A stretch of DNA of 64,000 bases, taken from Eukaryota sp. GEM-RC1. Lineage: Eukaryota. The notes beneath the pieces are model-generated. The model made no database searches, was not told the DNA's origin, and was given only the letters and a program-made list of their open reading frames with translations. The stretch's first letter is position 1. Each line of letters opens with the position of its first letter. Position numbers and translations under genes: made by a program. Shown piece by piece: positions 11,142 to 57,543 of this stretch. The DNA lies in the NCBI GenBank assembly GCA_040285855.1, contig JAUFOQ010000005.1, forward strand, positions 1,364,001 to 1,428,000, given 5' to 3'.

Positions 11142-11154
11142 TGTATCTATTGCA

Positions 11155-19691: not shown

Positions 19692-20029
19692 ATATTTCTT
19701 AATTAGTTTTCATAGTGTTGGGTATAAAAAGGTTCTTCTGGTTCTAAAGAAAAGAGTGTTGAAAGATTTTCAAGTTGATAGGTTGAATCTTGAATTAATA
19801 CTTACAAATAACAAGTTGATAGTTTGGTCATCTATTGATTATTCAAGCAACCTTTTACACTTATGTCTGTGGAATTTGCCAACACTACAATTTGCCAGAA
19901 GATATCAAAACTAGTGTTAAGCGTAGGGCTGTTAATTTACTTTAGTTGAACCAACTTAAGGTATTTCAAGTCGAGTTCAAGTTGATTTGAGATCATAGTC
20001 AAGTCGACATAAATAATGTTATCTGTGTG

Positions 20030-20130
20030 ATGGACATTATGAAGTTTGAGAGAATGTAAAAAGTTGATCCATCAATGGTCCTGAACTTTTGTTGAAAAAA
20101 GAGACAGTGATTCATCTACTTCCAGCATAC
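20030..20130 (+). pseudogene. Relic of the 5' end of the second-architecture LRR gene
   Basis: aagtttgagagaa..tcaatg..cctgaac.tttgttgaaaaa..ttccag matches ~18148-18243. Confidence 0.55.
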
Positions 20131-22670: not shown

Positions 22671-22926
22671 ATAAAAATACAATTGACTGTTTTTCTCTGA
22701 TGCTTTACATAGTTTCAAAATACATTTATACACGGACAAAATATTACTGAAGACAGAATTATTATATTATTTTTTCCTACTACTACCAGTAGCTACATGA
22801 ACATATTTAAATATTTTACATATATGCTTGGTATGTACATTAAAGTAGAGAAAACCGAAGCTTTTGATTATAATGAAAAAGTAATAAACAACCAATTATG
22901 GAAATTTTAAATACAGAAAAACATCA

Positions 22927-25619: not shown

Positions 25620-26296
25620 TGAATAAAACAAAATCAATAATTGCCGTATTTTAGTACACTAGAATAAATAATTGCCGTATTTGCGATACAAAAATAAATA
25701 ATTGCAATGATTTAAATAATTTTTATTGTTTCACAACATGATAAAGATGCATTGAACTGTTTTTCGATCACTCACTTGAACCTTGTCCTGTGGATTTCGT
25801 TGTACATAAGTAGTAATGGGAATATCACCGTTTGCAGCAGCCATCTCAGAGTCATAGTTTTTGTGGTGTTTATTGATGTGGGACATTAAGTTAGCATATC
25901 CTTTGAACTTAAGAATAGACTCACTTATATTGGGCATCTCTGACCAGTGTAAGAGACTTTACCCTCATGAAGATCAGAAAGTTGTTGTTCAGTTTTCCGG
26001 AAGTAAAACAAGGCAACTTCTTTTATTGATGAAGTGGAGGAGATAGAACTGATTCGGTGAGTTTGCTGTTAACTTTATTTTATCCACTAATAAATTTAAG
26101 GCATCTATACTTATTGTAAGTCAGTAATTAAACTAATGGTTAAAACAAAAAATACACAAAGATTAGTACCAATAATTTAAATAATTTCTAGATCAACAAT
26201 AAATGATTGCCGTATTTCATTTAGCAAAATCAATAATTGCCTTATGTTACCTGAGAAAAGTAAATTATTTTTACAATAATTTTTTGCCTTTATTTA
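25620..26296 (-). mobile_element. hAT relic (BED-finger fragment, ATTGCCGTATT subterminal repeats)
   Basis: KGYANLMSHINKHH resembles GFQNLKTHVENHH of the 60.6-kb hAT; repeated aattgccgta; the paralogous end ..cacatccctg lies at ~50279. Confidence 0.6.
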
Positions 26297-28516: not shown

Positions 28517-31380
28517 CCTTTATTTAAATGTATATATTTTTTCACAGGGCAGACGGAAACGAGATTGTTATCAAGGAACATCTTTTGCCAGAAATATTCT
28601 TGTGGTTACTGTAAAATTTAAAATATAGAGGGTCAGTAGTATTGATGTATGGCAGTTTTGGAGACAATTTAATGTCTGTTAGAAGAGTATTAACATAAAT
28701 CTATTTGAAACTTCTTATTGACATAAAATTAGGTGATTTGGAAAGTTGTAAGCAACTTGGTCAGTAAAAGAAGAAAATCAAAAGAAAGAGAATTTGTCAT
28801 TGGTTAACGTCATTTATCTCTAAATTATTTTCTGACTGACCAGCACATATATCACTACTTTAGCCACATGCACTTGTAAATCGTACTGTTTCTTTACCAC
28901 ACGGTTTTGAGTGGGCATCGATGCTCCTATTAGCACACGACTTTACAAGGGTGAAGAAATGAAAGAACTACACTGTAAGTAGCTGAATCCTCCTACTATA
29001 GTTCTGATAACCTTGTGGTTTTCAGTTGTGTACTTGCTAATTCTATAATACTACAACAATTGTCTCTGTTTCGTCAATTTTATTCCTTTGATGTGGACAG
29101 ATGAATTACTTTTATTTACAGTTTTACACATACCAAATTTGTTCAATTTTGTTACATTTCACTGTATTTACACGATTTTTACTTGTTATTATTGTGAATA
29201 AATATACATGTACCAGTATGTGTTTGTATGCTGCTTCTACTGAGTTATCTCACTAGGAGATCTTCGTCAGTAAATGACTTTGTAATGCTGTCACATCTTA
29301 TTTCTTGTTTTTCTCTATTCCTCATTAATTATTGATATCGAGTAGCTCAACTGGACTGAAATTCATCACATTCGTGCGTATTCTCAAGTCTATATCAGCA
29401 AGTGTGTTCAACAAATCTGACTACAGGGATATCCATTAACTTCTCAATGAAAAGTTCACAGCTTATGACATATCCATATTCTGTTTATTCGACAACATCC
29501 CCACTTTGTATGATAGCAGCCGTATTGAATTACATCAAAAACATTGCAAGCTTCTGGTTGGGTCTGCAAATTTCCTTCCATCATGAGATGACTATTTAAA
29601 TTCAGCTTTTAGATTATTTTGTCAATTTTATATTACGGGACTGATATATTTACTGATTCGGCCACAGTTGGAAAATGCCTATTTAGATTTACAACTGGAT
29701 GACAGTGCTTGATAGCTCATAATCACATATACTTGATATCATCTGCACTCGTGAAGTGATAGTCCTGGTTCAAATAAGATGATAACAGGTAGATGGAAGT
29801 TATTTTCAATAGCAGCAGTTCAGTAGGGAAACTACTCGGTCTGGAACAATTTTTTTTAAACTTTATACTAACGTTCGTTTGTTTGTTAAAATGGTTAACT
29901 GTTGTAATATTTCAATTCAATGGGAAATCGTTCTATTTGCTACTACATGTAGTAGAAATATTTAAAGGAATTTCTGATCCAATAATTGTATTTGAGATTG
30001 AATGTGATGCTACATTAATCGTACCCGAAAAAATTTGAATTTAACAATGTTCTTGTTCAGCTCTAAAGTCGTTACATCACGCATGTATATTTTAAAAAAG
30101 AATACACTTAGGCGAAAAGGATGCGGAACACTTTTTATACAAGGAACGATATTAGTGATTGTTCAGATTTAACCACCATGGAAATGTAACCTTCTAGAAA
30201 ACACGAGAGTCCTAATAGAGGGACTCCTTCAGGTTCTTAATGAGCAGGTACTTGTAGAACACATTTGAAATCAAGTAGTCGTTGAAGACTGGTAGCATAT
30301 TACATATCCACATTATTTGAATCAAGTGTTTGAGTTCGAATCATGTGTTAAGATACACATTCATTGAATGAACCACTGTTATTGACATGTACTGTAAATC
30401 AAGAGGTTCATGGCTCAATCGAGAGGATGAGCAGTCTTCATCAATTAAAGATGTGACAGTAGGAGATTATCTTAATCAAATTAAACAATAAATGCCAGCG
30501 TTTGCGATTGTATTATGATAATTATTTTGGTCCTTTTCATCGATATGTATACCATCCAAAAAATTGAAATCAAAGATTGAACACCAAAAAGTACTGATAA
30601 CAAAATTGCTGTTTCATCTCGATGAACTGTATCTGGATTAAACATCAGATGGAAAACACAGTATATTCATCAATGGTAAATACCACACTTTTCGATTACA
30701 TGTACTGGGTTGTTGTGTCAGGAATTCCTAGAATTCCTAAAATTACGATTTCTGCAGGAATTCCTGGAACTCTTAGAGTTACGATTACAACTGTACTTCT
30801 GAAATTACTAAAATTACTCTGAGAATTTCTGTGAAAGACTGAACTTTAGATTTTGAGAACCCTACTTTCAATTGCTGAATAAGTGACTAAACCTACCCTA
30901 TGTGGGTACATCTGATACGTAGCTCAAAGTAACGATTTTGGTATCATAACCCTCAGTCTGGTCACACACATTATTCTAAGAACACAACGTTGATATCTCT
31001 GTTACATTTTAACCAATTAGATGACAGATAACTGCACCTGAAAAGTGTTGTTTCATTCAAAAACGTATTTTGACTGAGAAATTGTATTTGAATCGATCAT
31101 TAGTTTTGTAGTAGCCAGAATAATTCAATCAAACAACGAAACTGCAGGCATGACATTGAATTGATTCATTTTGTTCAGCTTTACCCATAGAATTGAATTG
31201 ATCATTAAGAATTTATTAAAGGAATTCCTCCAAAACTAGTAACTCTAGAGTTGAAAAAATGACCTTCATGAATTGCTACAATTACGATTACTGAAAATTT
31301 GTAATTGAAAACTATGGTAAATACTACCTTAGTTACTCTGGTCTTGATCTTTTAGATTCTCATCTCCTGAAGACATTGTT

Positions 31381-36255: not shown

Positions 36256-39200
36256 TATCTCATTTGTTAATATTGATGATAGTCTTTATTTGTATGAGTA
36301 AATAAAAGGCGTTTTTTCAATTACTGGCAATTCTTTTGCTACAACTGCTCGTTTTTACCCCAGCAAAAGGTCTGGCTTCAGAATCTTCACAACGACTATA
36401 CATGACACTACCTCAATAATTCACATCCATTCAGTCCCTTATCTTCTATGTTTCCTCAAAGATCAGTTACCCCCTAATCAAATCTCTTATCTACTCACTC
36501 GTAGCAGACTTCCGCCAGTACTTTTACGCAGTTGTTTGTCTCACAATGAAATGCGTAGTTCGTCGTCTAAGTCATCTCCCTCACCAAAGGTGTAGAGCCT
36601 GAGAAAACACAGGTAAATGTGTTTTAGAACAACACATTCACCTTCTGCTGATAAAACTTCTGTGTCGGTTACAAAAAGGTCCGATATCTGACCATGAGTG
36701 GTAGGGAGTATCGTCCTGGAGATCAAGGTCTTGAAGGTCAGGAAAGAGACCAGCTACGGTGATGGGAGAAAAGGATTTGGAAGAAACGTGGAGATGTAAT
36801 GGCAGTGACAATGGTCAAGATAGCAAGAATACCATCTTCAGCTGAACAAGGAGGAAGTGGGGAGTCTTGTTCCAGGGCTTGAACTGAGGAAGTAGAAAAA
36901 GTCACTCAAGTTCTATTGACGTTAATGATCTTCCCACTGTTATGGCTGATGTACCAGCTGTTTTTAGCAACATTAACCAATCCTACCCCATTTGAATTCT
37001 GAATCTCAATCATTAGTTGAAGATCCATTAGAGGTAATCAATCCTAACCGAACCTTTCAATTACGAGATCCATTGTTCATTGCTCGTTTTCTTGGTTATA
37101 ATCTTGTTCTTCTCCATCGAATCACCCAATTAGACCTCAATTAAGGTCAACTATTTACTTTTGGTCGGTTTAAAAGGAAGCTGCCGACAAACTACGCAAG
37201 ATACCTAATTAGCAATTCTCAGCCTCCACAGTTCGTCTACTGCTTACCACTGATACTTTGTTCAGTAGCCATATTACTAAAACTGAAGAACACTTGTCTA
37301 TTGAATCAGAATGGCCTGCGATTAAACCTAAACCTGATGCAAAACCTTCCCCTTTCTTGCCAAATTACAAACCAAAAATGGACTTTGTTATGGGAGTTGC
37401 CAGGGCAGCTGACAAGTTAAGTAGACAAGGATTAAGATCGCTAATCAGGGATCCTAAAAGAAACAAGCGACCTACTTTACAAGAATTTGAAATTTGAATT
37501 TGATTGTTTTGTTGCTATGTCCTTATTCAATCTCACATAATCACGCATTTTACTCGTTCTACCTGTTCTTTGTCTAAGCTCGTGACTGCTTTACTTGTTG
37601 ATTTTATCTTTATTATGTCAGGTGTATTGACGAAAGTAATTTTCATCAAGTTTGATAGTCAAATCCTAACCTTCACTTCATTTTGATATTTACTTTTGTT
37701 ATGATTTTGTATTTTTGTATGTATATTCATGTTTGGATTCGTGATGTGAATCCGTCACTGTTATCGAATAGAATGAAATCGGATTCACTTTTCTTCGGTG
37801 ACAAGGAGTTCCTGATTTGTATGGAACTAGTTGTTGCCATACGATTCCTCTGATGGCGTGGTCGCTAGCGTCTGTTGTGATAAGTATCGTATCTTACTTC
37901 CAGGTTCGGGTAAAGATAAGGACACCGATTTCGATATTATTTTCTCAATATCATTAAATGTACGATTCAGATCGTCTGTCAATGTGATCTTTCTTGGCTG
38001 TTTCCGTTCTTTTTCTTCAACAGGTTCGTGAAAGAGATGATGAGTCAACTGATGTTTGGTAGGAATTCTCGAATGAAACTACAAAACCTTCAAAACTTCT
38101 AACTTCCTTTGCTGTCTCCCTTACTCTGGCAATTTTTTGATGACATCGATTAATGGCATTCTGCGCAGTACTTCGGCGATAACAGTCTTCAAATTCTTCT
38201 GAAACATTAAATCCTTCAACAAGTTGTTCATGGTCAGTAATAATGACGGTAGCCAATTGATTAGATGGGGATCTAAACCACACTCCGTATTCTTGTCTCT
38301 CTTCCAGCAGAAGTTTTCGTCGATGCTTTGTTGAACTGAATAAACTTACGATTAGGACTCTGATTCGGACCATTGCGAACCGAGAGTGATTAAGGACAGA
38401 TAACTACTGCTTGATGACGTTTCCATTTAAGAGACAGGACATTGCCAATATGAAGACTGCTTTAAAAAGGTGGTATAAACAACTGCCAATTGTTGATGAA
38501 TTTTGTTAGTGATCATTCTGAGTTAGTAAGTAGATCATCCTTGGCTGAGGATGACTCCTTAAAGAACTGTGTCTGTTCATTTACTGGCACTGTCTTTTTG
38601 ATTCGTATCAATCCATATGTACTTTTGATGGGCGAGCCTTTATCGACACTCAATTGAGAAAGTTGATGGAGGCCATCCATTCTGTTTCTTCTAGACCCAA
38701 ATATAATTTCCTATATAGGAAAACCCGAGGTATCCCTTTAGGTTCTAGAGGAAGTAGATTGAAACCATCATCTTTCGAGATTACTCAGCCAAAAAAGACC
38801 GAGAGGCAGACCATGTAAGAAGAATTTATCTAAATAGACTGCTTTTAATCCCTTAAAATACAGAAAATTGGAAAATGAATTTATGGTTAGTTTCGTATAA
38901 ATGTGGTAGGTGAGGACAAAAAAAGTCAATTTATGGTACGTTTAATCGGTGTCTATTTGTATTGACTATAATTTAAATATCAACACAACAAGCGGATCGT
39001 ATATTTACAAAACAACACTTGGACATCTAGTTACATCTGCCAGCTAACATTTATCATTTTTGTTTCTTAAAGACATGAACTATAAAAAGTTGCGAAACAA
39101 TTTTTAAATATCAAGGTACTAGTATAAGCTGGTATCTTCATAAAAAATTCAATCACCATCATTTGTTTTATTTCCATATCACTAATGAGACCATTATTTC

Positions 39201-39919
39201 TGTGCTTTGATCATCATTTTAGATCTACTAGAAAGAATAAATCGTCTGTTCAATTGCACTTTCACAACAATTGGACTGATTTTCCAGGAGCTGTAAAAAT
39301 TGAATTGGCAATTAATTGGTCATCAAAAGACGTACCAATCAATAATTGCGTTAAGTGCAATTAATCGAAGCCAATTAACCAATTTATAAAAATATAGTAG
39401 AAACTCAACAAAAACTACTCAATTTGAGGAAATGAGAATGTGGGTGATCACATTTTAAAAAAACTAATTATAAAGCACCTCGACTTCCACAGACTCCAGT
39501 GTTTATCGCAAAGACTGCGAAATTCCACTATGTCCCAAAGATACATGTTGCACTTCAAGAATGTATGCACTTGCGAACAACGCTTCCGAGAGAAGATAAT
39601 TACAGTCCGAGCAGTGAAAAATGTTAAACAGAGACGTTTCCTGACATCACCTATTGTCAAATGAGGGCTTATAGAAGATGTCCCAAACGCCAAGTTTTGT
39701 GATATCTAGAGGTTTGAAAATTGTAAAGAAATGCTCATTTGTCATTCTTATTCTTCTAAACAATATTTATTCTGTTTTGCAACAAAAACGAGTATAGTAA
39801 TTAAGGTTCATGTGGACTATATAAATTGACAATTGATTGGCAATTCTGTAAGTGGTACCGATCAATTATCAATTCTTACATATTCTAATTTGTAATAATT
39901 TATTGGCAACAATTGGAAG

Positions 39920-40727
39920 CAGCGATGCGAAGAAATTAATTTAAATTAAATTAATAATTCTTGACACCCGCAATTAATTAATTCTAATTCATATGGCCTA
40001 AAATTAATTAATTTCAATTCTCCGGTCTCACAATTAATTAATTGCAATTAATTGCAATTAATTCTTTAGAAGCAATACGATAACATACAACATACTATCA
40101 ATCACAATCACCATCGTAAGTCAATGGTAGTGAATTCGGCGCCGTTGCCTCATGACAATTCCTTCAAGAATTGATTTGCTTGCATCAAAGTACGGAAAAA
40201 CAGGTTCCAGAGATGGAATATTGATTCGTTAGAGAACTGAATGATTGTCATAGTTACTATAACATGCTATTATGATGACAATAAACCACGAACGAGTTAT
40301 ATTGTCCAGTTTTGGAGTTTTTTTTGCGTTTTGAATCTCGTACACTAAGCCAGTTTGATAATATCGTCAGTTTGCTGGTATTTAGCAGTCCAGTTTTGAC
40401 AAGTTTCCACTGTAACACTATCAAAATATGAAGTTGTAAGTTTCTCATATGCACTAGAAGATCGTGGTTCGACACATGTAAAAATAAACAATGCTTTCTT
40501 GTAGAATATTGAGACGATACCCCCGTATGGATGACAAGTAATTATACCATTAATTCTACTAATTTCCATTAATTCATTTTAATTCTAAGGTGTAACAATT
40601 AATTAATTACAGTCTTCCCTCGGTTTAGTGCCGCTGTTTGGACCGGTACTCAACCGAGGGAAGACTGTATAATTCTAAGCATCTAGAATGAATTAATTAT
40701 AATTAAATTAATTTTTTCGCATCACTG
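39920..40727. mobile_element. Nested hAT-type MITE
   Basis: TIR cagcgatgcgaagaaatt / aattttttcgcatcactg; 8-bp TSD attggaag/attggaaa; AATTAATT subterminal repeats. Confidence 0.85.
40610..40667. mobile_element. 58-bp pogo/Tc1-type mini-MITE
   Basis: TA | cagtcttccctcggtttagtgccg, 10-nt loop, cggtactcaaccgagggaagactg | TA; 24-bp TIR with 2 mismatches. Confidence 0.85.
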
Positions 40728-41799
40728 ATTGGAAATCCAGTTCCCTTTTGACAGCCCCTGCTAATTTTCCATTTGGAATAAATCAGTTTGGCCAAACTGA
40801 TAAGTTTGATTTCTTTTCAAGAACCTACCTTGTTGTTGATCTATATCTCAACAATATCATTTTGCAATGATGAAATAATTCACATGGCACTATTGACATT
40901 GTATCTATTGCAATGTACCATAACTAAGTCTCACTGAGACTAATTATGTCCTCAAAAATATTTGGTTAGAGAAGTTTCTTTAGCTGCAAATTTGTATTCG
41001 TAAAACTCATTTTAAACAGGAATTGTCTGTCTATCTTCTTATAACCACATCATCTAAACGAGTCCCTGTGCATCAATACAAGTGTCGATGTGTTCCTGAT
41101 CTTCAAATGGATTCCAAAGATCATGTTTTTCGTCAACAATGGTCGTCAGTACACAGACTAGAGCCAAATTGGAGGACAAACATTTTCATTCATGGGCTAT
41201 TACAAAGTAGACCCACAAAAGACCATTTTCTCAATCGTATTATATTACGGTTCATTCTTTATTTTGAATTATTTGTTACGCACTACACATTTGTCTCATT
41301 AACATTTCTTGTTGAACTCTATTATTCACTGTGGGAAGGTGTCTTTGGACACTGTAAGTTGAGTTTGTTAAATCAGCGCAGGCAAAAATATTCAATAAGG
41401 TCAGACGATTTTGCACCCTCGGAGTCAAATATAGATTACAAAAATTGTCATCAAAATGTTTGCATGTACAAAAATAGTCATCAAAACGGCTGTTCAATAC
41501 TAGTTTGAATGTGCTTGTTATGAAGAAAAAGTTTGTATATTTTGCATTGATGTGAACACACTTCGGAAGGTTACCTTATTGGGTGCCGAATAAATTCTGT
41601 CTCATTCGTTACGATGATTAGTTGATAACTACATTGAATAGAGAAATATAAAATGTATGTACATTTGAGATTTCATGAAATAATTAGTCTCAGGACTAAT
41701 TTTGCATTGGGACCAGTTCCTGATGTCGGTGTATACGTATCGCGCTAAATACTAGATTGTATCTTGAATTTCTGTCAAGATCAAACAAATTCCAGGACG

Positions 41800-42590
41800 A
41801 AACTTAATGTTTCTTAAATTTGCCTTACAGAAGTTACAAAATCATTCATTAAAGTTAAAGTACTTTAAAATGAAAGATTTTACAATTCGTCTCAGCTCAT
41901 CTGAGGAAATAATGTCAGCTTTCGCCAATTTTGTATTCGATTTAAATGAGAGTTCTACAGTGGCATTCAAGAATAAAATTCGACAAATGTATGGTTTATT
42001 ATTAAAGGATCATCAATGGACCACTACGATGATGCGACTTCATTGCTATTTAGGATCATACAATTTGCTGAATGATCTTCGATGTAGCTGTTGAAAACAA
42101 CTGACTTTTGCCACTTGTTAAGTTGTAATCGCTACATAACTTATCAAACTTGTATGCATGATGTTGTAAGTGACCAAATACAGGTTATGTATATCTCCTA
42201 CACAATTGAATCATTACTTGAACCACTGTTAAAATCTTTAGAAATAAACAGAACAAGATATTTCTGATCAAGCCAAGCACGTTAAGTACACGAAACCATT
42301 GATGGCTTTAAAACATGTAGAACACGTTGAATACGAATTATGCCCTTTTGATGTTTCAATTTATGGACGTTTAGGAAAAAGTACATTGAATTTTTTAAAC
42401 GATTTCGAAAAAATCGTTAAAAATAGGATGAACAAACGTTTTGATCATATTCTCTGGTTGAATCGGATCGTTTTTAATGTTTTTGAAACAATTCCCCCAA
42501 TCATCTCCAAAGCATTATTAACGGTGAGTTCCTTTTATGAGGACAAAGCTTTGTTGTAAGTGATGGGTGATGTTTCAATGGTATCAAATA
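41800..42590 (+). mobile_element. Decayed CRE-like fragment (paralog of 11940-12690)
   Basis: YELCPFDVSIYGRLGKS endonuclease tail. Confidence 0.75.
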
Positions 42591-43195
42591 GTGAGTACTA
42601 CAATTTTTGCACTGCCAGCAATCAACAATTGAATTCAAAATCTTTATCACTAATGATTGATTGAGATAACGTACTTTCGCAACCAAGGCCAACATTGACC
42701 GAAAATGAAGAAATGCAGAACTTTACAGCACATTAGCAACAATTGTTTAAGACTTGATGACCACGTCAGCAGGTCACGTCAGCAGCAGCGAGGAAACCAA
42801 CTAACTATCGACATCTTCGCCAACACTACGTTTAAAAGCGTTGATGCTGTAAATGATGTTAGTAGTTAAGGATTTGAAAGACTTGAAATTTATGAGGAAA
42901 ATAGATTTGAATTGTATCTGATTTCCAAAATATTGTATGACTACTTTCTTCTGGCTTTTGGGTTCGTCTTAATGTAACAGAAATATGTGGTATTACGGAT
43001 ATCAAATTTGAAAACTTCTGACCAGTTAAAATGATTGATAAGTAAAGAAATGACTATAACCTAGAAAAATTCTTCTCACCATGGGAAAACAGAAGTCATC
43101 AGAAATCCAGTCAGAAATGCAATGCCTCACATACACTACACTTAGATATAGTGAAGGACAATGAGAATCAATTTGTATCGAAAATTAATTAGTAA

Positions 43196-45752
43196 TTACA
43201 ATCTATTAAGTTGACGTACACCCTCTACTTTAACTCTATGATTAACTTTCAACGCCTCTGCCAAAGCTCTGGCACCTTCAGCTCCAATAAAGTTCCACCT
43301 CAGATCAATATTTGTAACTGAAGCATTAAATTTCAACGCCTCTACCAAAGCTCTGGCACCTTCATCTTCAATAGAATTGTGACTCAGATTAACACTTGTA
43401 ACTGAAGCATTCACTTTCAACGCGTCTGCCAAAGCTCTGGCACCTTCAACTTCAATAGAGTTGTCCTCCAGATTAACACTTGTAACTGAAGCATTCACTT
43501 TCAACGCGTCTGCCAAAGCTCTGGCACCTTCAACTTCAATAGAGTTGTCCTCCAGATTAACACTTGTAACTGAAGAATTCACTTTCAACGCCTCTGCCAA
43601 TGCTCTGGCACCTTCATCTCCAAATGAGTTCCACTCCAGATTAATACTTGTAACTGAAGCATTCACTTTCAACGCCTCTGCCAAAGCTCTGGCACCTTCA
43701 GCTCCAATAGAGTTGCACCCCAGATTAACACTTGTAACTGAAGAATTCACTTTCAACGCCTCTGCCAATGCTCTGGCACCTTCATCTTCAAAAGAGTTTC
43801 TACTTAGATCAATACTTGTAACTGAAGCATTCACTTTCAACGCCTCTGCCAAAGCTCTGGCACCTTCAGCTTCAATAGAGTTACACCCCAGATTAATACT
43901 TGTAACTGAAGCATTCACTTTCAACGCCTCTGCCAAAGCTCTGGCACCTTCAGCTCCAATAGAGTTGCACCCCAGATTAACACTTGTAACTGAAGCATTC
44001 ACTTTCAACGCCTCTGCCAAAGCTCTGGCACCTTCATCTCCAATAGAGTTGTATTCCAGATTAACACTTGTAACTGAAGCATTCACTTTCAACGCCTCTG
44101 CCAAAGCTCTGGCACCTTCAACTTCAATAGAGTTGTCCTCCAGATTAACACTTGTAACTGAAGAATTCACTTTCAACGCCTCTGCCAAAGCTCTGGCACC
44201 TTCAGCTCCAATAGAGTTTCCACCTAGATCAATACTTGTAACTGAAGAATTCACTTTCAACGCCTCTGCCAAAGCTCTGGCACCTTCAGCTCCAATAGAG
44301 TTTCCACCCAGATCAATACTTGTAACATTACCAAATCTAATTTCTTTTAAGACTTTCTTTAATTCTGGTTTCAGATGACTCCACTGATCCTCGTCAAGGT
44401 GCAATGAATTCTGAATTGATAGTCTGTTTTCTTTAACTTTTCTACTCTGATTATAATTAAAAGATTCTCTAGTTGAATTAGACCTCATCCAAGAGATCTT
44501 TTTTAATCAATGGGTTTGAATTTCTGTTTTGACGCTCAATTCGATGTTGTAAATGGTTGATTTGAGTTTGCAATTGAGAAATAGTTTCATTTAAAGATTG
44601 TTTCTCATGTTGAAAATCACTTTCTAAATTTAGAACAAAGTTTAAATGTTGTTCAGTAAGTTTCGAATTTTCGTTAATCATTTTCCTGTTCTCAGCTTGT
44701 AAAAGTAGAATTTGACCAGTTTGAGATTGATTTTTCTCTTTAACGGACTCCAGTTCTTCTAGCAAAAAAGACTGGTCAGGTTGAATCGAAGGCTTGGGAA
44801 GATTTAAATTTTCCAAAACTTCAATAATTTCGGAAATTTTAGGTCGTAGAATTGGATCTGAATTTAAACATTGATTGATTATGCTACACAATGCAACTGG
44901 AATTGTTCTATCAAAGGGTAAGGATTTGCCACCATATTTAGCTCCTACAATAGCATAATGCTTCATCCCTTGAAAAGCTTCTTTTTTTGGAATAATTCAT
45001 ACAAAATAATTCCAATGGAGTAAATGTCACTTTGAGGTGTAACACTGTCATCGAGCTGTTCTGGAGCGGCATAACGTAGAGTTATTGCAGCAGTTCTCGG
45101 AATTGTTGTTGTGGATTCAATGTTTCGTGAAGTTCCAAAATCAGCGATTCTGATTCTATCATCAACAACTAAAACATTTCCTGGTTTAAGATCTCCATGA
45201 ACAACGGACTTACTGTGGAGATATCTTACACCCTGGCAAAGTTCTTTGGCATATTCGACAGTGAGGAAGGAGAAAGAGTTGGGGGAGGGCAGACAAGATG
45301 AAGCTCTTTCCATTACGATTCCGATGCGTTCTTCCCAAGAGCAAAGACCATAGACACGGAGAACAGCAGGGTGATTTAGTTGAACAAGAAGGTTCATCTC
45401 CTTCTTTAGTTTGATTCTTCCCTTTTCAGTAAGGGGAGATCATTTTGACAGCTACTGGGAGTCTGAACCACATTCCAGCATAAACAACAGCACAACCTCC
45501 TTCAGCGATCTTATCAAGGACTTCAACTTGGTCTGATGGGATTTCTGGGCAGAGATCGCCGTTACGAGCAGCCTCCACAAGGTCTTTGAGAGCATAGTTT
45601 GTAGGTTTATCCATGAGACAGACTTTGCGGCAAGTTGGGCAGCTACTTAAGGCAGACGCGCACTGAGAACAAGCGGTGTGCCCAAGTTCGCATAGAAGCA
45701 AAGGTAGGCGACCAGAGAGGTTGAACGGTTCGTAGCAGATGAAACAATCCAT
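43196..45752 (-). CDS. RING - non-RD kinase - coiled coil - 13 LRRs (paralog of 13499-16492); three 1-nt homopolymer indels
   Basis: Four ORF pieces align end to end with copy A. Breaks fall at the G4 run ~45433, T7 run ~44982 and T6 run ~44499; no in-frame stops. Confidence 0.85.
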
Positions 45753-45854
45753 CGTAGTACTAGTAGAAGTTGAAGTACACAAGTGAGTCAATATTGACTG
45801 TTTCCATCTGATTTTACAATACAACTTTTAAAATACAACGAATAAATACATGAA

Positions 45855-46512
45855 CGCTGATTTGTTCAATTGATCTCAATGAGACTGATTATGTGATAAA
45901 ACTAATTAAAAAGGTACGAAAATATTTGAAACCTTGCTAGTGGCAGAACTTGCTAGTTCGACTGATTGTTCTTCTTCTCTAAACAACACCCTTGAATCTG
46001 ACATAATTGCTGATGTGATAGTAATTTACTACAATCGCCAGTTTTTCATAGATTATATTCTACGGTATACATTTACGTGTACTTGAACTTTCTCGTCATG
46101 ATTTACTTTAGTGTATACTGGATGAATACAACACCAATCATGGAATCACTTCATTGGCCCCGTGGAAAATATTTACTTAGACTGTTGGTTTTGGTGCAAA
46201 TGTAAATTGTACGTAATTGTTAAATAAATTTAATAGGCAACTGAAAGAAAGCATCTAATAAAACAATTCGATTAGGTCCAAATGATGTACAAGAATTATT
46301 TGTAAAATATGAGCCACATTTACTTCAAAAATTGTTTTAATATTCAAATTGGTTACTACTACACAAATTTTGAAAAATACAACTACATGTACACTGGTTA
46401 CAGTATTTAGTCTCAGTGGAAAATTAGTCTCACTGAGACTAATATATGAATAGACCATTTTGGAAACTAGGTTGGGAATTAGTGTCACTGAGATTAATTG
46501 TTGTGATCAGTG
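45855..46512. mobile_element. MITE-like element, GTCTCACTGAGAC family
   Basis: Left cgctgatttgttcaattgatctcaatgagact vs reverse complement of the right end cactgatcacaacaattaatctcagtgacact. Confidence 0.6.
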
Positions 46513-46659
46513 TAGCTACATGAACATATTTAAATATTTTACAAATATGCTTGGTATGTACATTAAAGTAGTGAAAACCGAAGCTTTTGATTATAATGAA
46601 AAAAGTATTAAATGACCAAGCATAGAAAGTTTAAATTAAAGAATACAAGAACAACATCA

Positions 46660-47906
46660 CTACAAATCCTGAGAAAATCCAGCAACCTCAAACACCTTCC
46701 TTTCATTACAATACACGTCATTAATCCCTGCTGAACCCAATACAGCAGTACTAGTACAAGCTAAATCCTCTTCCGCGGCATAACTTCCATTTTTCCAGTA
46801 CTCACCCACGTCATAAACACCCCACATCACGTCAGCATCAGAAGGATTCAACAAGGCGGCACAAACTCCAGCCTTAGCTAATTCTACTACAATCAGTTTA
46901 ACATCACATTGGAAGTTGATGACGTGATCTTGATTGGAAAACTGTTTTATAGAATCATTTAGTTCTTGTTTGAATCTCATTGGGTTGAAGTAAACAACTG
47001 GTATACTTGTCTTAAACAACTCATAAACTGTCATTAAGGAATCAAAATACATTCTGGCTAAATCGCTCTGTTCTTTTCCAGACATTGAAGATCCTGAGAG
47101 GAATACACCGAGGCCAATAGCTGGAATTGCAAGGTGTGTGTACTGGTAATGTTTAACAGCTGAAAGTACAGAAAACCAAAGATTGCTCAAAATTTTAAAT
47201 ATTTGGGTTGAGTCATGTCGAAATGTATCCACTAGCATCGGAGAAAGACTGCTATAAGCAAAATTCAGCCCCGGTACACTAACCAACAGATTAGGTTTAC
47301 AATCATCTAGAAAACAGCTCCTGATCTGATTCAGAGCAAACCCCTTTGTATCAACAGCTTGCTCTACAAAGAAATGAACCAGCTGAGCATGTACTACAGC
47401 AGAAGCCAATATCAGCAGAGGAGTTTTAAGGGACTTCTGGTAGTGTTCGAAGGAAGAGAAGCCAAGAGATTGCCATTGGGAGGAGCCGTTGGGGGATAGG
47501 TTGCAGACAGTACCGAAAGATCTGACATCTTGTTGGATGATGTTGATTTCATCATCCTTGAACTTTTTCAAAAGAAGAAGATATGCTGTTTTAGGAATAG
47601 ACTCAGCACATACGAAGATAGATGCAGAGTCAAGGAGATGTTGTGCACAAGACTTGGTTAACGACACTGTGTTGTTACCGTAAGCATTTCGTAAGTCAGG
47701 TGTATCGGCAGCTATAGAAACCAATGTAGAAGGATCCTGTTTAGCGAGCGGAACTCTGAGATAGGTAAGCCAGCCATCACGAAGATTGACGGCAGTAAGT
47801 TGTTGAAGGAATTTTCGAGCAGTGAATCCACAGCGTTCTCCATAACATATAGGTTTATGATCCAGACCTAGATAGTGGGAGAAGCGTCCAATGGAAGCGT
47901 GAAGAG
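46660..47906 (-). pseudogene. Second copy of the macrodomain-like gene; start separated by a MITE
   Basis: Frame open and near-identical to 22927-24177 up to about codon 3. MITE inserted there; the original ATG position now reads ATA. Confidence 0.75.
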
Positions 47907-48338
47907 CAGTGTTCGAAAATTTTCCACCCGGACGCCACCCGGGTGGTCACCGGGTGGCATTAAAGAACGAGACATAAGTTTTGGTGCAATAACTACTTTA
48001 TACACCATATACGATGAAACTTAAAGTACTTTAGCAGTGTGTGATATAAAATAACTAACAATGAAGAACTTTGTACAGGTTTGGGATTAAAACAACCCTC
48101 TGAAAAATATATAAATAAGATGATATTAGCCTATCCGAGCCTAGAAATAACTCCCGTTAAAATAATTGTATTCAGGACACGTTGAACAACGAAGTATTTA
48201 TTCAGGAAGTCATGGATTGAAGATGATGGTAAGACAAAAATTATCCACCCAGTACCACCCAGACGCCACCCGGGTGGTGGGTGGCACTGGTGGCACCCGG
48301 GTGGTTTTCATTTCCACCCGGGTGGTTTTCAAACACTG
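47907..48338. mobile_element. 432-bp hAT-type MITE
   Basis: TIR cagtgttcgaaaa / ttttcaaacactg; perfect 8-bp TSD gtgaagag; CCACCCGGGTGG palindromes. Confidence 0.92.
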
Positions 48339-51300
48339 GTGAAGAGATATTTGTGAATGTCATTCTTTTCTTTTCCTTGATCATCTGTAAAGGAATCTCA
48401 ATGGCTCTCATGACTTGCTGTCTGTCAGAGAGAATACTTAGGTCGTTCTCTCACCGCTTCCTTTCATCATTCCTCCTTTCCAAAAATCGTGTAGGGACAA
48501 GATGCTATCCACATTACTCTTTGTTCCATCAACAAGTTCTTTGATCAGTGTATCCTAATAATATAGTAATCGGAATCTCCCTTTGAAATCATCCTTAACC
48601 TTCCAGAATACTTTGGTTACACTCAGACCTACAATCACTCTTCTACTAACTCTTTTTGATACTCTTCCCTATTATTTCCCTCGTACAGCAGAGGAAGCTT
48701 CAGCTACTAGTCCTCTTCTCCCCTGCAGATGTAGGAAATGAATGGGGAGAGTACCAAGATGCTGAGAGAACTCTTTCCTATGTTGACATTATTCTCCCTA
48801 CTTCGTCTTCTCTCTTTGATGAAGTAACTGGACTTAAGGAAATCGAATCACGTTCTGTCGACTGTGATTGTAAATGGCTTTCACATAATTGATGCTATAT
48901 TGTACTGGAAGAAATTTCCGGTACTTTCCTTTTTCATTGTTAGTACAACAATTTTAATTTATATTACTGGTCAACTTATTTAAATATTTAATTATTTAAA
49001 TTTGCCACATGTACAGATTCACTGACATTGTGTGGCGTACCTTGCACTGGTAGAAAAGTGTCGTAACCTAATTGGTCTCGACCATAATGACGTCATCAAT
49101 CGTGGCTATTTCTTGCACACTCACTGACAGTTTGGAGCTTTGTCTGTTACTTCTAGTTCCCTGAAATCTTCAATGACCTAGAGTTAGTGAAAGTTTGCCA
49201 TGTGGATGCTGATGCTTTTCTAAGACCAACATAAGCTTACTGGATAGTGTAATTGAACAGGAAAGATCCAAGAGTCGTCGATGGTTTTCAACCTTAAAAC
49301 TAGATACGAAGTTAAGAAGAAGTGGAAGATCATCATGACAGACGGAAACAATTGTTTATGTTTAAATCTATGTGTAATCAAAATCAAAAATAAGAAATAT
49401 TTAAATTTATTCTAAATAATTAGGATCTTTCCAAAAAGATTCACTGTCTACTCCGCTATCTTCACTGCTCCAGTGTTCACATTCTTCACAATAATGGCAA
49501 CCATGAGCTCCACACAGAGCAACTCCACCATTGCTGCCTCCCATCATATAGTGATGGTAGGCACTTTGGTGTGCTTAGGAGCATTGGGACATTCATGCTC
49601 TTCCGAATGATGGGTTGGTGTTTCATCCCCATCACCGAGCTCTTCCCTCAATCATATCATATGGATCATGATTGGGGACTTCAGTTTCTTTGGCAACTCT
49701 CTTGACATCTGGGAATGGCAAAGTGGATTCAGAATCACGTGGTTCGGCTTCGACTGACAAGATGGCAACTACGCCATCAATGTCAATCACTTCGGTGATT
49801 CATCTGAGAAGCTCACTCACTTGGTAGGCAGGTTTAGCAGTCTTCACGTACTTCGTATAGCTATAGTTAGTGCCTATTTATAGGCTTACCAGTGCATTTT
49901 GGGAAGACCGCTACTTAGAACTCTTCAGTAGAAGTGGTTGTTGTTCAGTTTTCCGGAAGTAAAACAAGGCAACTTCTTTTATTGATGAAGTGGAGGAGAT
50001 AAAACTGATTCGGTGAGTTTGCTGTTAACTTCATTTTATCCACTAATAAATTTACGGTATCTATACTTATTGTAAGTCAGTAATTAAACTAATGGTTAAA
50101 ACAAAAAATACACACAGATTAGTACCAATAATTTAAATAATTTCTAGATCAGCAATAAATGATTGCCGTATTTCAACTAGCAAAATCAATAATTGCCGTA
50201 TGTTACCTGAGAAAAGTAAATTATTTTTACAATAATTTATTGCCGTTATTTAAATGTTTATAATTTTTTCACATCCCTGATCTGGGCAGACGGAAACGAG
50301 ATTGTTATCAAGGAACATCTTTTGCCTAAAATATCCTTGTGGTTACTGTAAAATTTAAAATATAGAGGGTCAGTAGTATTGATGTATGACAGTTTTGGAG
50401 ACAATTTAATGTCTGTTAGAAGAGTATTAACATAAATCTATTTGAAACTTCTAATTGACATAAAGGTAGGTGATTTGGAAAGTTGTAAGCAACTTTGTCA
50501 GTAAAAGAAGAAAATCAAAAGAAAGAGAATTAGAGAGAGATGTTTATTCGGCACCCAAGAGAATTTGTCATTGGTTATCGTCATTTATCTCTAAAATATG
50601 TTTTTGACTGACCAGCATATATATCACTACTTTAGCCACATGCATTTGTATGTCGTACTGTTGCTTTACCACACGGTTTTGAATGGGCATCGATGCTCCT
50701 ATAAACCCACACGACTATACAAGACAAATTTGAAAGACCTATACTGTAAGTAACGAAATCCTCGTACTATAGTTCTGATAACCTTGTGATTTTCAGTTGT
50801 TTACTTGCTAATTCTATAAAACTACAACAATCGTCTCAGTTTAATCAATTCTATTCCATTGATGTGGACAGATGAATCACTTTTAGTGACAGTTTTACAC
50901 ATACCAAATTTGTTCAATTTTGTTACATTTCACTGTATTTACACGATTTTTACTTGTTATTATTGTTAATAAATGTACATGTACCAGTATGTGTTTGTAT
51001 GCTGCTTCTACTGAGTATTGTCACTATAAGATCTTCGTCAGTAAAGGACTTTGTAATGCTGTCACATCTTATTTCTTGTTTTTCTCTATTCCTCATTAAT
51101 TATTGATATCGAGTAGCTCAACTGGACTGAAAGTCATCACATTCGTGCGTATTCTCAAGTCTATATCAGCAAGTGAGTTCAACAAATCTGACTACAGGGA
51201 TATCACTTAACTTCTCAATGAAAAGTTCACAGCTTATGCCATATCCATATTCTGTTTATTCGACCACATCCCCACTTTGTGTGATAGCAGCCGTATTTAA

Positions 51301-51679
51301 TTACATCAAAAACATTACAAGCTTCTGGTTTGGTCTGCAAATTTCCTACTATCATGAGATGACTATTTTAATTCAGCTTTTAGATTATTTTGTCAATTTT
51401 ATATTATGGGACTGATATATTTACTGATTCGGCCACAGTTGGAAAATGCCTATTTAGATTTACAACTGGATGACAGTGCTTGATAGCTCATAATCACATA
51501 TACTTGATATCATCTGCACTCGTGAAGTGATAGTCCTGGTTCAAATAAGATGATAACAGGTAGATAGAAGAGATTTCCACAGTGGTTTAGTAGGAAAACT
51601 ACTTGGTTTGATACTTCAAATGACATAGTAACGTTCGATTGTTCGTTAAATTGGTGAATCTGTGGTATTATTTCAATTC

Positions 51680-52377
51680 AATAGGAAGTTAATTTCTTTT
51701 AATTAAGTTCCCAACTCCAATTGTTCTTTACGTTAAGCTCCTTACTGATATTAGACGAAATGCAGCGATCAATTCCTGGCCTTTTCGTCCCAGTATGGGA
51801 TTGCCTTCTGCAGAAGAAGTTCGGTCGCTACTACAAGATAACAAACCTTTGACTATTGAACACTTCCATGAGCATTGGTTAATTAACAAAGTCGTTGAAC
51901 CCATTCGAAGATCTGGAAATCCAGTTGTAGAACCTGCTTCAGTGGTACTAGATACCAACCACTATTTGGAACAAATTCGAGCCTTACCAGCTCAGCAACA
52001 AGAATTGGTTTTGGCACAAGTGAGAACCTTGTTAGAATCTGCAACCAACGGTCCCAAAGAGCCTTCTGTTGTCAAAAAGGGAGAGGAAGGCCTAAGGGTT
52101 CGAGGAATGTTCGAAGAGAGCCATCGGCACATGAAATTGCATCAGCACCAGCAATTAAACGTAGCAGAGGACGACCATCTGGTAATAAGAATTAGGTAGC
52201 TTTGCTTTAGTTTTATGATCAGTTCTCTATTTATTAGCTATTTTTACCTATATTTTGGTACATTTAGGGTGATGAATAACCATATGGTACAACTAGGGAA
52301 AACTCAAGGACGATATAGATATTTATGGTACATTTAGGAATATCTGGTACATTTAGTGGTGCATTTAGGGTTTATCT
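51680..52377 (+). mobile_element. MULE/Mutator transposase 3' relic, specific to copy B
   Basis: MGLPS.E..PLTIEHFHEHW (SWIM-adjacent pattern), frameshifted GRGRPKGS AT-hook, ggtacatttag terminal repeats. Confidence 0.6.
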
Positions 52378-53809
52378 AGAAATAATCATAGGAATCACTG
52401 ATTCAATAGCTATATTTGAGATTGTAATTAATGCTACATAAAGCGTACTTGTAAAATTTGAATTGAACAATGCTCATCTCAGCTCTAACGTCGTTACATC
52501 ATGCTTGTATATTGTAAAAAGAATACACTTAGGCGAAAAGGATGCGGAACACTTGTTATACAAAGAAACGATATCAGTGTTTGTTCAGATTTAACCACAA
52601 TGGAAATGTAACCTTCTAGAAAACACGAGAGGACTAATAGAAGAACTCTTGCAGGCCCTTAATGAGCAGGTACTTGTAGCACATATTTGAAATCAAGTAG
52701 TCGTTGAAGACTGGTAGCATATACACATATATACAAGAATCACGTGTTAAGATACACGGACATTCATTGAATGAACCAATGATATTGGCATGTACTGTAG
52801 ATCGAGAGGTTCATGGCTCAGTCGAGAGGATGAGCAGAATTCATCAATTACAGATGTGAAAGAAGGAGATTATCTTAATCAAATTAAACAATAAATGCAA
52901 GTGTTTGCGATTGTACTTTGATATTTTGTTTGGTCCTTTCATCAACATGTATACAATCCAAATAAATAATAATGGAAATCAAAGATGGAGCACCAAAATG
53001 TACCGACAACAAAATTGCTGTTTCATCTCAATAAACTGTATTTGGATTAAACATCAGATGGAAAATAAGGTTTATTCATCAATGGTAAATACCACACTTT
53101 TCAATTACTGTGTTTGTGGTGCCAAGAATTCTTAGCGTTACGATTACAACTGTACTTCTGAAATTACTAAAATTACTCTGAGACTTTCTGTAAAAGACTG
53201 AACTTTCGATTTTGAGAACCCTACTTTCAATTGCTGAAAAAGTGACTAAACCTACCCTATGTGACTAGATCTGATACGTAGCTCAAAATAACAGTCTGAT
53301 CACACAAATTGTTCTAAAAACACAACGTTGATATCTCTGTTACATTTTAACCAATTATAGGACAGATAACAGTACTTGAAAAGTGTGTTTTCATAAAAAA
53401 ACGTATTTTGACTGAGAAATTGTGATCTGTTTGTATCGATCAATATTTTTGTACTAACCAGAATAGTTCAATTAAACAACGAAACTGTAGGCATGACATT
53501 GAATTGATCCATGTTGTTCAGCTTTAACCATAGAATTGATCATTTAGAATTTATTAAAGGAATTCCTCCAGAACTAGTAACTCTAGAGTTACAAAAATGA
53601 TCTTCAGGAATTGCTACAGTTACGATTACTGAAAATTTTTAATTGGACACTGTGGTAAATATTTTCTCAGTGAGAAAGAAACGGGGTTTATGATCAATCA
53701 GTTAAATATATGCATTCGCAGAAGTTAATAACTAACAGACACTAACTAAAGTATCTAAACTATGATCCTTCTGTCCATTACCGAACAACTTGCCTAATAT
53801 TGAATTAAA

Positions 53810-55684: not shown

Positions 55685-57543
55685 ATGCTCACACCTCGCC
55701 CTGAACCATTGTTGAAAAGAGTCGTTCATCCCCTTCCAGTATCCCCTCTGTGATGTCTAACTGTGACGAACTGTCGGTCTTATCTTCATCCCCACTTCCT
55801 CCCTCTAAACGTGTCAATGTTCAGCAGACTTTGTTGATTCTGATCTATCTCCACTTGCTGAGACGTCTTCTCAACCGTACCCTTGAAAATAATCACGATC
55901 GAAATCCTCAACTCCATGATTTGAAAACAGCGTTACCTGCATTCTTTGGACAAGTTGGCTATGTAAGTCATCACTTCCTTGATTCTTCATTCCAAACAGT
56001 TAAAGTCTTTTTTCAGTTATACACTTTTGATTCTGATCTTAAAGACCTCCCCAAACTAATTTCACTTGCGTCTTTCTTTGGAGTGGATCTACAATCTATT
56101 TTCATGTACGCTTTCAGAACCCTAGAAATTGAGAAATTTCTTAATTATTCTGGTATAATTACAGGATTCGGAATATTACTAAAGGAACCCTCTGATTTAG
56201 AGTTTCTAAACAAATCTTCTTCCTTATTTCCACGTCTTAAAGAATTCAAAATAATAGTAGTGGGAGGACTACTACGCACCTCTGTTTCTATGTTATTGAT
56301 TGAAGCGTTGGAAACCAATACTACAATTACAAGTGTTCGCCTGGAGGACAACTATATTGGAGCTGAAGGTGCTAGAGCTTTGGCAGAGGCGTTGAAAATT
56401 AATACTACAGTAACAACTGTTTGTCTAGATGGAAACTCTATTAGCGATGAAGGTGCCAGAGCTTTAGGAGAGGCGTTGAAAGTGAATACTTCAGTTACAA
56501 GTATTGATCTGAAGTACAACTCTATTGGAGATGAAGGTGCCAGAGCTTTAGCAGAGGCGTTGAAAGTGAATACTACAGTTACTGGTATTGATTTGTGTGA
56601 CAACTCTATTGGAGATGAAGGTGCCAGAGCTTTAGGAGAGGCGTTGAAAGTGAATGCTTCAGTTACTAGTATTTATTTGGGTCACAACTCTATTGGAGAT
56701 GAAGGTGCCAGAGCTTTAGGAGAGGCGTTGAAAGTGAATACTTCAGTTACAAGTATTGATTTGTGTAACAACTCTATTGGAGATCAAGGTGCCACAGCTT
56801 TAGGAGAGGCGTTGAAAGTGAATACTTCAGTTACAAGTATTGATCTGAAGTACAACTCTATTGGAGATGAAGGTGCCAGAGCTTTAGCAGAGGCGTTGAA
56901 AGTGAATACTACAGTTACTGGTATTGATTTGTGTGACAACTCTATTGGAGATGAAGGTGCCAGAGCTTTAGGAGAGGCGTTGAAAGTGAATGCTTCAGTT
57001 ACTAGTATTTATTTGGGTCACAACTCTATTGGAGATGAAGGTGCCAGAGCTTTAGGAGAGGCGTTGAAAGTGAATACTTCAGTTACAAGTATTGATTTGT
57101 GTAACAACTCTATTGGAGATCAAGGTGCCACAGCTTTAGGAGAGGCGTTGAAAGTGAATGCTACAGTTACAAGTATTGATCTGAAGTACAACTCTATTGG
57201 AGATGAAGGTGCTAGAGCTTTAGGAGAGGCGTTGAAAGTGAATGCTACAATTTCTAGTCTTGATTTGTGTGACAACTCTATTGGAGATGAAGGTGCCAGA
57301 GCTTTGGCAGAGACGTTGAAAGTTAATACTTCAGTTACAAGTGTTAATCTGTGGGCAAACTATATTGGAGATGAAGGTGCCAGAGCTTTAGGAGAGGCGT
57401 TGAAAGTGAATGCTTCAGTTACTAGTATTGATCTGGAGGATAACTCCATTGGAGCTGAAGGTGCCAGAGCTTTAGGAGAGGCGTTGAAAGTTAATCCTAG
57501 ACTTAAATTAGTGGGAGTAGATGAACTCAATGAGCCAAAATAA
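55685..57543 (+). CDS. LRR protein, second architecture, 14 LRRs; 1-nt deletion in an A run near 55716
   Basis: ATG CTC ACA CCT at 55685 matches the 18186 start (gaaaag here vs gaaaaag). Di-residues ED,DG,KY,CD,GH,CN,KY,CD,GH,CN,KY,CD,WA,ED. Confidence 0.88.

What the first reader, a model, noticed from the sequence alone, without database searches (positions are those of the whole stretch)
43240..44330. Sister kinase-LRR genes have completely rewritten arrays
Seen: the RING and kinase N-lobe of copies A and B are almost identical. Copy B has 13 units (GG,GG,ED,EY,GC,GC,SR,GC,EW,ED,ED,SH,RW) against 18 in a different order in A, and a different C-terminal cap (KVEGVRQLNRL vs KVEIDYSLYNDD..). 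The downstream flanks also differ. Inference: the sensor module turns over much faster than the signalling module, by unequal crossing-over, conversion or wholesale 3' replacement.
Basis: partly seen in the sequence, partly recalled or inferred. Interest (0 to 1): 0.8.

Follow-up and report, generated by a model that had tools for sequence, protein, structure and literature searches.

The report
Sister kinase-LRR genes swap recognition parts
Two sister genes of a single-celled eukaryote keep nearly the same enzyme front end but have reshuffled their leucine-rich repeats and differ in their tail and in a short kinase patch, likely by recombination with relatives, a pattern already known from candidate immune sensors of algae, ciliates and fungi.

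Summary
Gene B has 13 repeats of 84 nt with exactly the listed tip codes; A has 18; their order matches no better than shuffled; caps and 0.5-0.7 kb of 3' flank differ. Two corrections follow. (1) The arrays are reshuffled, not rewritten: they share 5 tip types (3 of 50,000 chance draws) and A2 differs from B1 at 1 of 84 nt. (2) The signalling half is not static. RING to DFG fits the age of the ~25 kb duplication (dS 0.11, dN 0.01), but an 81-nt kinase alphaG-alphaH patch differs at 41% of sites against 7% elsewhere and matches different paralogs in A and B. Each cap is closer to stand-alone LRR paralogs than to the sister. Best reading: unit duplication and loss within arrays, plus ectopic conversion from a large Skoliomonas-lineage family of RING/non-RD kinase/coiled-coil proteins with interchangeable tails, likely cytosolic sensors (untested). 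The array behaviour has a close precedent (Ectocarpus ROCO sisters with 13 and 17 LRRs). The architecture and the kinase-patch swap were not found in my searches.

The parts
43196..45752 (-). Gene B: RING - kinase - coiled coil - 13 LRR - cap; split into 4 frames by three single-base indels
43235..44326 (-). B LRR array, 13 x 84 nt, open frame, ribonuclease-inhibitor-type 28-residue units
43196..43234 (-). B cap, the common family type shared with window genes D, E, F and P0170, P0234, P0155, P0192
42736..43195 (.). B-specific 3' flank, no match elsewhere in the window
44882..44962 (-). B kinase alphaG-alphaH patch (codons 264-291), 41% different from A; inferred import from another paralog
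45433..45436 (-). B frameshift 1, in a C run
44982..44988 (-). B frameshift 2, in an A run
44499..44504 (-). B frameshift 3, in an A run
13499..16492 (-). Gene A: intact 997-residue RING (C3HC4 pattern) - HGD kinase - coiled coil - 18 LRR - acidic cap
13559..15070 (-). A LRR array, 18 x 84 nt; units 1-5 close to B units (6.4%); units 6-18 little or no closer to B than to gene C
13499..13558 (-). A cap, acidic type resembling stand-alone LRR proteins P0252, P0270, P0235, P0171, P0248
15622..15702 (-). A kinase alphaG-alphaH patch, 82-86% identical to P0140/P0142
12880..13498 (.). A-specific 3' flank; 12880 to about 13340 is a fragment of a non-LTR retroelement (+ strand) related to copies at 21.5-22.7 and 26.3-28.5 kb
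5632..31323 (.). First copy of the collinear tandem segmental duplication, holding A
37504..53661 (.). Second copy of the duplication, holding B
18183..19691 (+). Gene C: stand-alone LRR paralog, 10 units
55705..57543 (+). Gene D: stand-alone LRR paralog, 14 units

Best explanation
A and B are sister genes in a ~25 kb tandem duplication whose LRR arrays differ in unit number and order, likely through unit duplication, loss and conversion within each array, while a kinase alphaG patch in B and the cap and 3' flank of at least one copy were likely replaced by recombination with other family members; the proteins are predicted cytosolic sensors. Shown by sequence: architecture; duplication; purifying selection from RING to DFG; lost unit order; shared tip types; gene-specific homogenisation of the helix half of units; hypervariable tips; discordant alphaG patch; two pre-existing cap types. 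Inferred: the 84-nt near-identical intronless units misalign, so unequal exchange adds or removes whole units in frame; conversion tracts shorter than a unit spread helix-half variants along an array while the two tip residues stay diverse; B received its alphaG patch (A's version matches the N-lobe relatives). Untested function (about 0.5): the LRR horseshoe binds a variable target such as a microbial or viral protein through the tips after each beta strand, and the non-RD kinase and RING then phosphorylate and ubiquitinate it or a partner, with alphaG helping set the partner.
For: Clock: duplicated non-coding or decayed-element DNA differs at 559 of 7024 sites (8.0%); the neighbouring duplicated gene has dS 0.115; A/B codons 1-215 have dS 0.109, dN 0.010. 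Patch: codons 216-316 have dS 0.48 (Fisher p 1.6e-5 against codons 1-215); best tract is codons 264-291, 41% vs 7.3%, reached by 0 of 300 permutations, third positions 59% vs 12%. A-B protein identity there is 43%, A-P0142 86%, B-P0006 64%. A+B are sisters in the N-part and coiled-coil trees (SH-aLRT 99 and 97) but are rejected as a clade for codons 216-316 (AU p 0.039). Arrays: 23 of 31 units are nearest to their own gene; helix half Fst 0.24 (p 0.0025) vs strand half 0.02 (p 0.25); homoplasy test p 0.023 for A+B; 5 shared tips vs mean 0.5-0.6 with 26 other family proteins. Caps: A scores 36-41 with five acidic-cap proteins vs 14 with B (shuffle p 0.003); B scores 60 with P0170 (0 of 1000 shuffles). 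Tips: 140 dipeptides among 300 family units, entropy 3.7-3.9 bits; first/second-position differences 0.56 vs third-position background 0.10; they follow the beta strand in an RI-like model. HGD in 41 of 52 relatives, HRD in none.
Against: No reads were available, so unit counts rest on the assembly. No close donor was found for B's patch (best 64%) or at DNA level for either cap; relatives were seen only as predicted proteins. The AU result is marginal, from a tree with unsettled bootstrap and long branches. The homoplasy test is not significant for B alone (p 0.10) or all four genes (p 0.34). Pairwise pN/pS at the tips is 0.8-1.05 because both are saturated, so positive selection is not formally shown. 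The permutation tests ignore relatedness of units. The shared rare EW tip in A14/15/17 and B9 argues against all of distal A being foreign. Nothing here tests function.
Confidence: 0.7

Rival explanations
1. Neutral churn: near-identical 84-nt units and many paralogs recombine simply because they can, and the variation has no recognition role.
For: Best-match unit divergence (6.9-9.8%) is about the non-coding clock (8.0%). Tip pN/pS is near 1. The region is full of mobile-element debris.
Against: Variation is concentrated in two adjacent codons across 300 family units while framework positions are nearly fixed. All four window arrays keep an open frame. RING to DFG has dN/dS 0.09.
Confidence: 0.2
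2. Wholesale 3' replacement: one sister's whole array, cap and flank came from another LRR locus in a single event.
For: Caps belong to two pre-existing types and the flanks are non-homologous. A6-A18 are little or no closer to B than to gene C (10-13% vs 12-13%).
Against: A1-A5 are 6.4% from B vs 13% from C or D; A2 and B1 differ at 1 of 84 nt; 5 tips are shared, including EW and RW seen 1 and 0 times in 300 family units. Only a partial, distal replacement fits.
Confidence: 0.07
3. Assembly artefact: arrays were collapsed, expanded or scrambled in assembly or polishing, or A and B are two haplotypes joined in tandem.
For: The window has probable indel errors at homopolymers. Short-read assembly of such arrays is unreliable (PMC12222747, abstract). 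Identical neighbouring units exist (A7=A8, B10=B11).
Against: Most units are distinct, with gene-specific variants in ordered blocks, and there is no indel in 31 units. The two halves differ by 8% plus kilobase insertions and are separated by unique genes. Long reads recover such arrays (same abstract). Error would not create paralog-type caps or an alphaG patch.
Confidence: 0.08
4. B is a real, young pseudogene, so its differences reflect relaxed selection (a separate question from the mechanism).
For: Three frameshifts. Real slippage also favours homopolymers.
Against: No premature stop in the A-aligned frame apart from the indels; dN/dS 0.09 in the N-part. 3 of 3 indels lie in runs of 4 or more, which hold 7.4% of bases, and two other window genes also change frame at short runs. 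11 of 52 predicted relatives leave the frame or are gapped at three recurring spots, one of them (P0123) at B's second site.
Confidence: 0.25

Closest known systems
Ectocarpus ROCO LRR-GTPases (PMC3341825; abstract and section 15 read)
   Same: Two recently duplicated genes almost identical except for a recombined LRR domain with 13 and 17 units; intra- and intergenic recombination; proposed immune receptors.
   Different: There each repeat is a 72-nt exon and the enzyme is a ROCO GTPase; the authors found no reshuffling at LRR-kinase loci. Here the units are 84 nt in one open frame, and the front end is RING plus kinase.
Podospora hnwd NLR family (PMC1805685, PMC2873952, PMC12222747; abstracts read)
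   Same: Highly similar repeats under concerted evolution within and between loci, variable repeat number, and a few hypervariable binding-surface residues.
   Different: WD40 repeats on a STAND NTPase with proven allorecognition and formal positive selection. Here RI-type LRR, no NTPase, function untested.
Tetrahymena 90-bp-exon LRR genes (PMC6564038; passages read)
   Same: Protist LRR family with variable unit number, ectopic recombination, some kinase fusions, and adjacent non-LTR retrotransposons.
   Different: Exon-based with phase-2 introns and 30-residue units; no RING-kinase module in the passages seen.
Arabidopsis KEEP ON GOING (PMC5385374; passage read)
   Same: RING plus kinase followed by repeat arrays for protein binding.
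   Different: Ankyrin and HERC2-like repeats and a hormone-signalling role; homology was not tested, and it was not among the listed hits.
Non-RD immune kinases (PMC8463890; start of abstract in search listing only)
   Same: Catalytic loop lacks the Arg (HGD), a feature associated with innate immune signalling across kingdoms.
   Different: An association only. The receptor kinases described there are membrane proteins, whereas A starts with a RING and shows no hydrophobic segment by inspection.
Skoliomonas-lineage RING-kinase proteins (hypothetical proteins named Eukaryota sp. GEM-RC1, TZLM1-RC, TZLM3-RCL)
   Same: Same RING-kinase-coiled coil module; tails are LRR, TPR, UBA, a SPRY-like domain or unknown.
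   Different: Annotated only as hypothetical; the genome paper PMC11316075 has 0 occurrences of 'kinase' and 'leucine-rich' in its main text.

Membership tests
Ribonuclease-inhibitor-type LRR | 28-residue beta-alpha repeats forming a horseshoe | tested here: met
   Pfam LRR_6 E 2e-86; model with alternating strand and helix, best fold match bovine RI E 3e-15
Active protein kinase, non-RD type | Catalytic Lys, Glu, HxD, DFG and APE present; no Arg before the catalytic Asp | tested here: met
   Pfam Pkinase E 4e-40; motifs read from the translation; HGD in 41 of 52 relatives. Activity not assayed.
RING E3 ligase | C3HC4 zinc-ligand pattern | tested here: inconclusive
   Pattern present by inspection; Pfam Sina_RING 26.7 bits, below the 29.3 cut-off
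Concertedly evolving sensor arrays (hnwd-like) | High internal repeat identity with variable number and order among paralogs | tested here: met
Concertedly evolving sensor arrays (hnwd-like) | Hypervariable sites under formal positive selection | tested here: inconclusive
   Hypervariable yes; pN/pS saturated at 0.8-1.05
Concertedly evolving sensor arrays (hnwd-like) | Non-self recognition phenotype | not testable with these tools
   needs experiments
NLR / STAND proteins | NACHT or NB-ARC NTPase domain | tested here: not met
   No such Pfam hit in A
Exon-shuffling LRR genes (Ectocarpus ROCO, Tetrahymena) | One repeat per exon | tested here: not met
   Units are contiguous at 84-nt spacing in one open frame
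ROCO | ROC-COR GTPase | tested here: not met
KEEP ON GOING | Ankyrin and HERC2-like repeats after RING and kinase | tested here: not met
LRR receptor-like kinases | Signal peptide, extracellular LRR and transmembrane helix before the kinase | tested here: not met
   Order is RING-kinase-LRR; no hydrophobic segment by inspection; no predictor was run

The most novel reading that the evidence does not exclude
A free-living metamonad lineage runs a combinatorial cytosolic immune-sensor repertoire in which a RING/non-RD-kinase output module is recombined with interchangeable detector tails (LRR, TPR, SPRY-like). Recombination diversifies both ends of the circuit: the LRR tips that bind the target and the kinase alphaG patch that docks the substrate. 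That would be an NLR/TRIM-like system without an NTPase, evolved independently in a deep eukaryote branch.
Probability: 0.3. Interest if true: 0.8.

Novelty: new variant of a known kind. Interest (0 to 1): 0.5.

Why it matters
This case adds an intronless version on a RING-kinase, in a lineage where my searches found no such family described. It also gives evidence that a kinase docking patch is exchanged alongside the repeats. If the sensor reading holds, it names a testable candidate for innate recognition in metamonads. It also warns that these genes are probably mis-annotated as fragments because of homopolymer errors.

Tried and rejected
No whole genome is held for the window. No sequencing run was listed for 42500-46500, so read checks were not possible; this is no evidence either way. 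The metagenome scan gave 2 loci out of 40 candidate stretches, matching only the RING at 42%; not used. Three look-ups of earlier findings returned nothing. Recent conversion as the cause of RING/N-lobe identity: rejected, since dS 0.11 matches the clock. A's cap as read-through into a retroelement insertion: my first reading, dropped when five paralogs with a similar acidic cap appeared. The first unit regex missed 4 A units and was replaced by fixed steps. The unit tree is weakly supported and was not relied on. The single-sequence model of A is reliable only for the LRR part (mean pLDDT 51; residues 1-463 mostly under 50), so the helix names alphaG and alphaH come from recalled kinase anatomy, not from the model. 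The SPRY-like label rests on a low-confidence model (pLDDT 46) whose best match is TRIM65 PRYSPRY at E 1.6e-3; Pfam and PDB sequence searches gave nothing. The protein atlas gave no answer. Rows dropped: window-encoded P0135 and P0143 from all trees; P0148, P0139 and rows under 70-80% coverage from segment trees; P0214 from the cap test; A18 and B13 from the Fst test. Literature searches finding no description of this family; a search on alphaG conversion failed. Supplements of PMC11316075 were not read and might mention these families.

Full report
What is there. The finding's coordinates hold an 84-nt tandem array on the minus strand, one of four in the window. It is the 3' part of gene B (43196-45752). 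Its sister, gene A (13499-16492), is an intact 997-residue frame: RING-like zinc finger, protein kinase, coiled coil and LRR array. A single-sequence model folds the array as a beta-alpha horseshoe that best matches ribonuclease inhibitor, with the two tip residues just after each strand. A and B lie in a collinear tandem duplication, 5.6-31.3 kb against 37.5-53.7 kb. The first 22 of 378 hits to A's N-part are hypothetical proteins of Eukaryota sp. GEM-RC1 (16), TZLM1-RC (4) and TZLM3-RCL (2), at E of 4e-74 or better against 2e-21 for the next hit. A search of shorter proteins added 32 hits, 29 of them GEM-RC1. I match these names to the Skoliomonas metamonads of PMC11316075 by name; sections 6 and 17 were read.

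A clock. Eight duplicated non-coding or decayed-element blocks differ at 559 of 7024 aligned sites (8.0%, range 3.7-10.3%), and the neighbouring duplicated gene has dS 0.115. A and B codons 1-215 (RING to DFG) have dS 0.109 and dN 0.010. Their near-identity is therefore purifying selection on both copies, not recent homogenisation.

The arrays. Order is lost: a collinear alignment of units is no better than shuffled orders (p 0.42-0.98). Of 31 units, 23 are nearest to a unit of their own gene, 5 to the sister, and 3 tie. Ancestry is not lost. A2 and B1 differ at 1 of 84 nt. A1-A5 are 6.4% from their best B unit against 13% from genes C or D. A and B share five tips (GG, ED, EY, EW, RW), against a mean of 0.5-0.6 and a maximum of 3 with 26 other family proteins having six or more detected units (many of those have fewer units than A or B). 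Drawing 8 tips from family frequencies reached five in 3 of 50,000 trials. The helix half of the units is gene-specific (Fst 0.24, p 0.0025) while the strand half is not (0.02, p 0.25) (the permutation ignores relatedness). Nearby sites are more compatible than distant ones in A+B (p 0.023) and A (0.031), but not in B alone (0.10) or all four genes (0.34). Together these point to unit duplication and loss with conversion tracts shorter than a unit. By substitution the arrays are not much faster than background (best match 6.9% from B to A, 9.8% from A to B). What changes fast is number, order and the tips: 140 dipeptides among 300 units of 53 relatives, with 19 residues at each tip site. First and second tip positions differ at 0.56 against 0.10 for third positions elsewhere, but pN/pS there is saturated near 1, so positive selection is suggested, not shown.

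Caps and flanks. Homology ends inside the cap and resumes at 12879/42735. B's cap is the common type, also in window genes D, E and F and closest to stand-alone LRR proteins P0170 and P0234 (scores 60 and 58 vs 14 for A; 0 of 1000 shuffles). A's cap resembles an acidic type in five other stand-alone LRR proteins (36-41; shuffle p 0.003). Both types exist elsewhere in the family, so the 3' end of at least one sister was likely replaced from another locus. A is the better candidate, because A6-A18 are little or no closer to B than to gene C. The rare EW tip shared by A14/15/17 and B9 argues against all of distal A being foreign. A's private flank includes a non-LTR retroelement fragment; its role is unknown.

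The kinase is a mosaic too. Codons 216-316 have dS 0.48 and dN 0.20 (Fisher p 1.6e-5 against codons 1-215). The strongest tract is codons 264-291: 41% different against 7.3% outside (0 of 300 permutations), and 59% against 12% at third positions (0 of 500). Selection on the protein would not raise third positions like this. In that tract A and B are 43% identical; A is 86% and 82% identical to P0142 and P0140, and B is at best 64% to P0006. A and B are sisters in trees of codons 1-215 and 317-420 (SH-aLRT 99 and 97) but are rejected as a clade for 216-316 (AU p 0.039, 41 rows, bootstrap unsettled). A's version is shared with the N-lobe relatives P0121 and P0001, so B is the likely recipient; no close donor was found. 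From recalled kinase anatomy this tract is alphaG-alphaH, a substrate and partner docking surface.

Is B intact? It has three single-base indels, all in runs of four or more bases, which make up 7.4% of its bases; two other window genes also change frame at short runs. Of 52 predicted relatives, 11 leave the frame or are gapped at three recurring spots, one at B's second site. The named relatives were assembled from early nanopore reads with short-read correction. With dN/dS 0.09, assembly error is more likely (about 0.75) than a young pseudogene. No run was listed to test this.

Function, inferred. The family keeps HGD in 41 of 52 members; the other 11 lack the motif. [quoted passage not shown] The same front module carries LRR, TPR, UBA or other tails. 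One tail is 71% identical to a window domain whose weak model best matches TRIM PRYSPRY. A cytosolic sensor that binds variable targets and answers with phosphorylation and ubiquitination fits this anatomy, at about even odds; nothing here tests it.

Comparison and verdict. Ectocarpus has two recently duplicated ROCO genes, almost identical except for LRR domains of 13 and 17 units (PMC3341825 section 15). Podospora hnwd genes (abstracts) and Tetrahymena LRR genes (passages) show the same turnover. The present genes work like these but belong to none of them: there is no NTPase or ROC-COR, and no repeat-per-exon structure. RING plus kinase plus repeats recalls plant KEG with different repeats. 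Searches found no description of this family. The feature is real and a new variant of a known kind; the alphaG swap and the interchangeable tails are the more interesting parts.

Noticed in passing
window 6427-9260: LTR retrotransposon with 101-bp terminal repeats that are 100% identical, present only in the first copy of the duplication; its frames are broken.
   Followed up: partly
window 56494-57165: Gene D carries a four-unit block (KY, CD, GH, CN) repeated twice; three unit pairs are identical and one differs at 2 nt.
   Followed up: partly
window 19077-19412: Gene C has four identical GG units in a row.
   Followed up: no
window 32916-34498 (-): BTB - coiled coil - SPRY-like gene with one frame change; its last domain is 71% identical to the tail of RING-kinase P0007, so tails also move between front modules.
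   Followed up: partly
window 22927-24189 and 46660-47946 (-): Conserved duplicated gene (dS 0.115, dN 0.018) with no Pfam hit; by eye it may be macro-domain-like (recalled, untested).
   Followed up: no
window 13323-13352: Short palindrome exactly where the retroelement fragment in A's flank stops.
   Followed up: no
window 21530-22658, 26312-28523, 11.9-12.6 kb, 41.8-42.6 kb, 53.8-54.6 kb: Several copies of a non-LTR retroelement family (RVT_1 E 1.6e-6; CRE-like by recall) surround the LRR genes.
   Followed up: partly
window 1355-1708 and 54910-55075 (+): Two short or decayed LRR gene ends (E, F) with the common cap and similar 3' sequence.
   Followed up: partly
window 60899-62314 (-): Open 471-codon frame that looks like a hAT-type transposase by recall; no Pfam hit.
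   Followed up: no
P0002, P0004, P0125: Relatives also look mosaic: P0125 and P0002 are 93% identical in the alphaG patch but fall in different N-part clades.
   Followed up: partly
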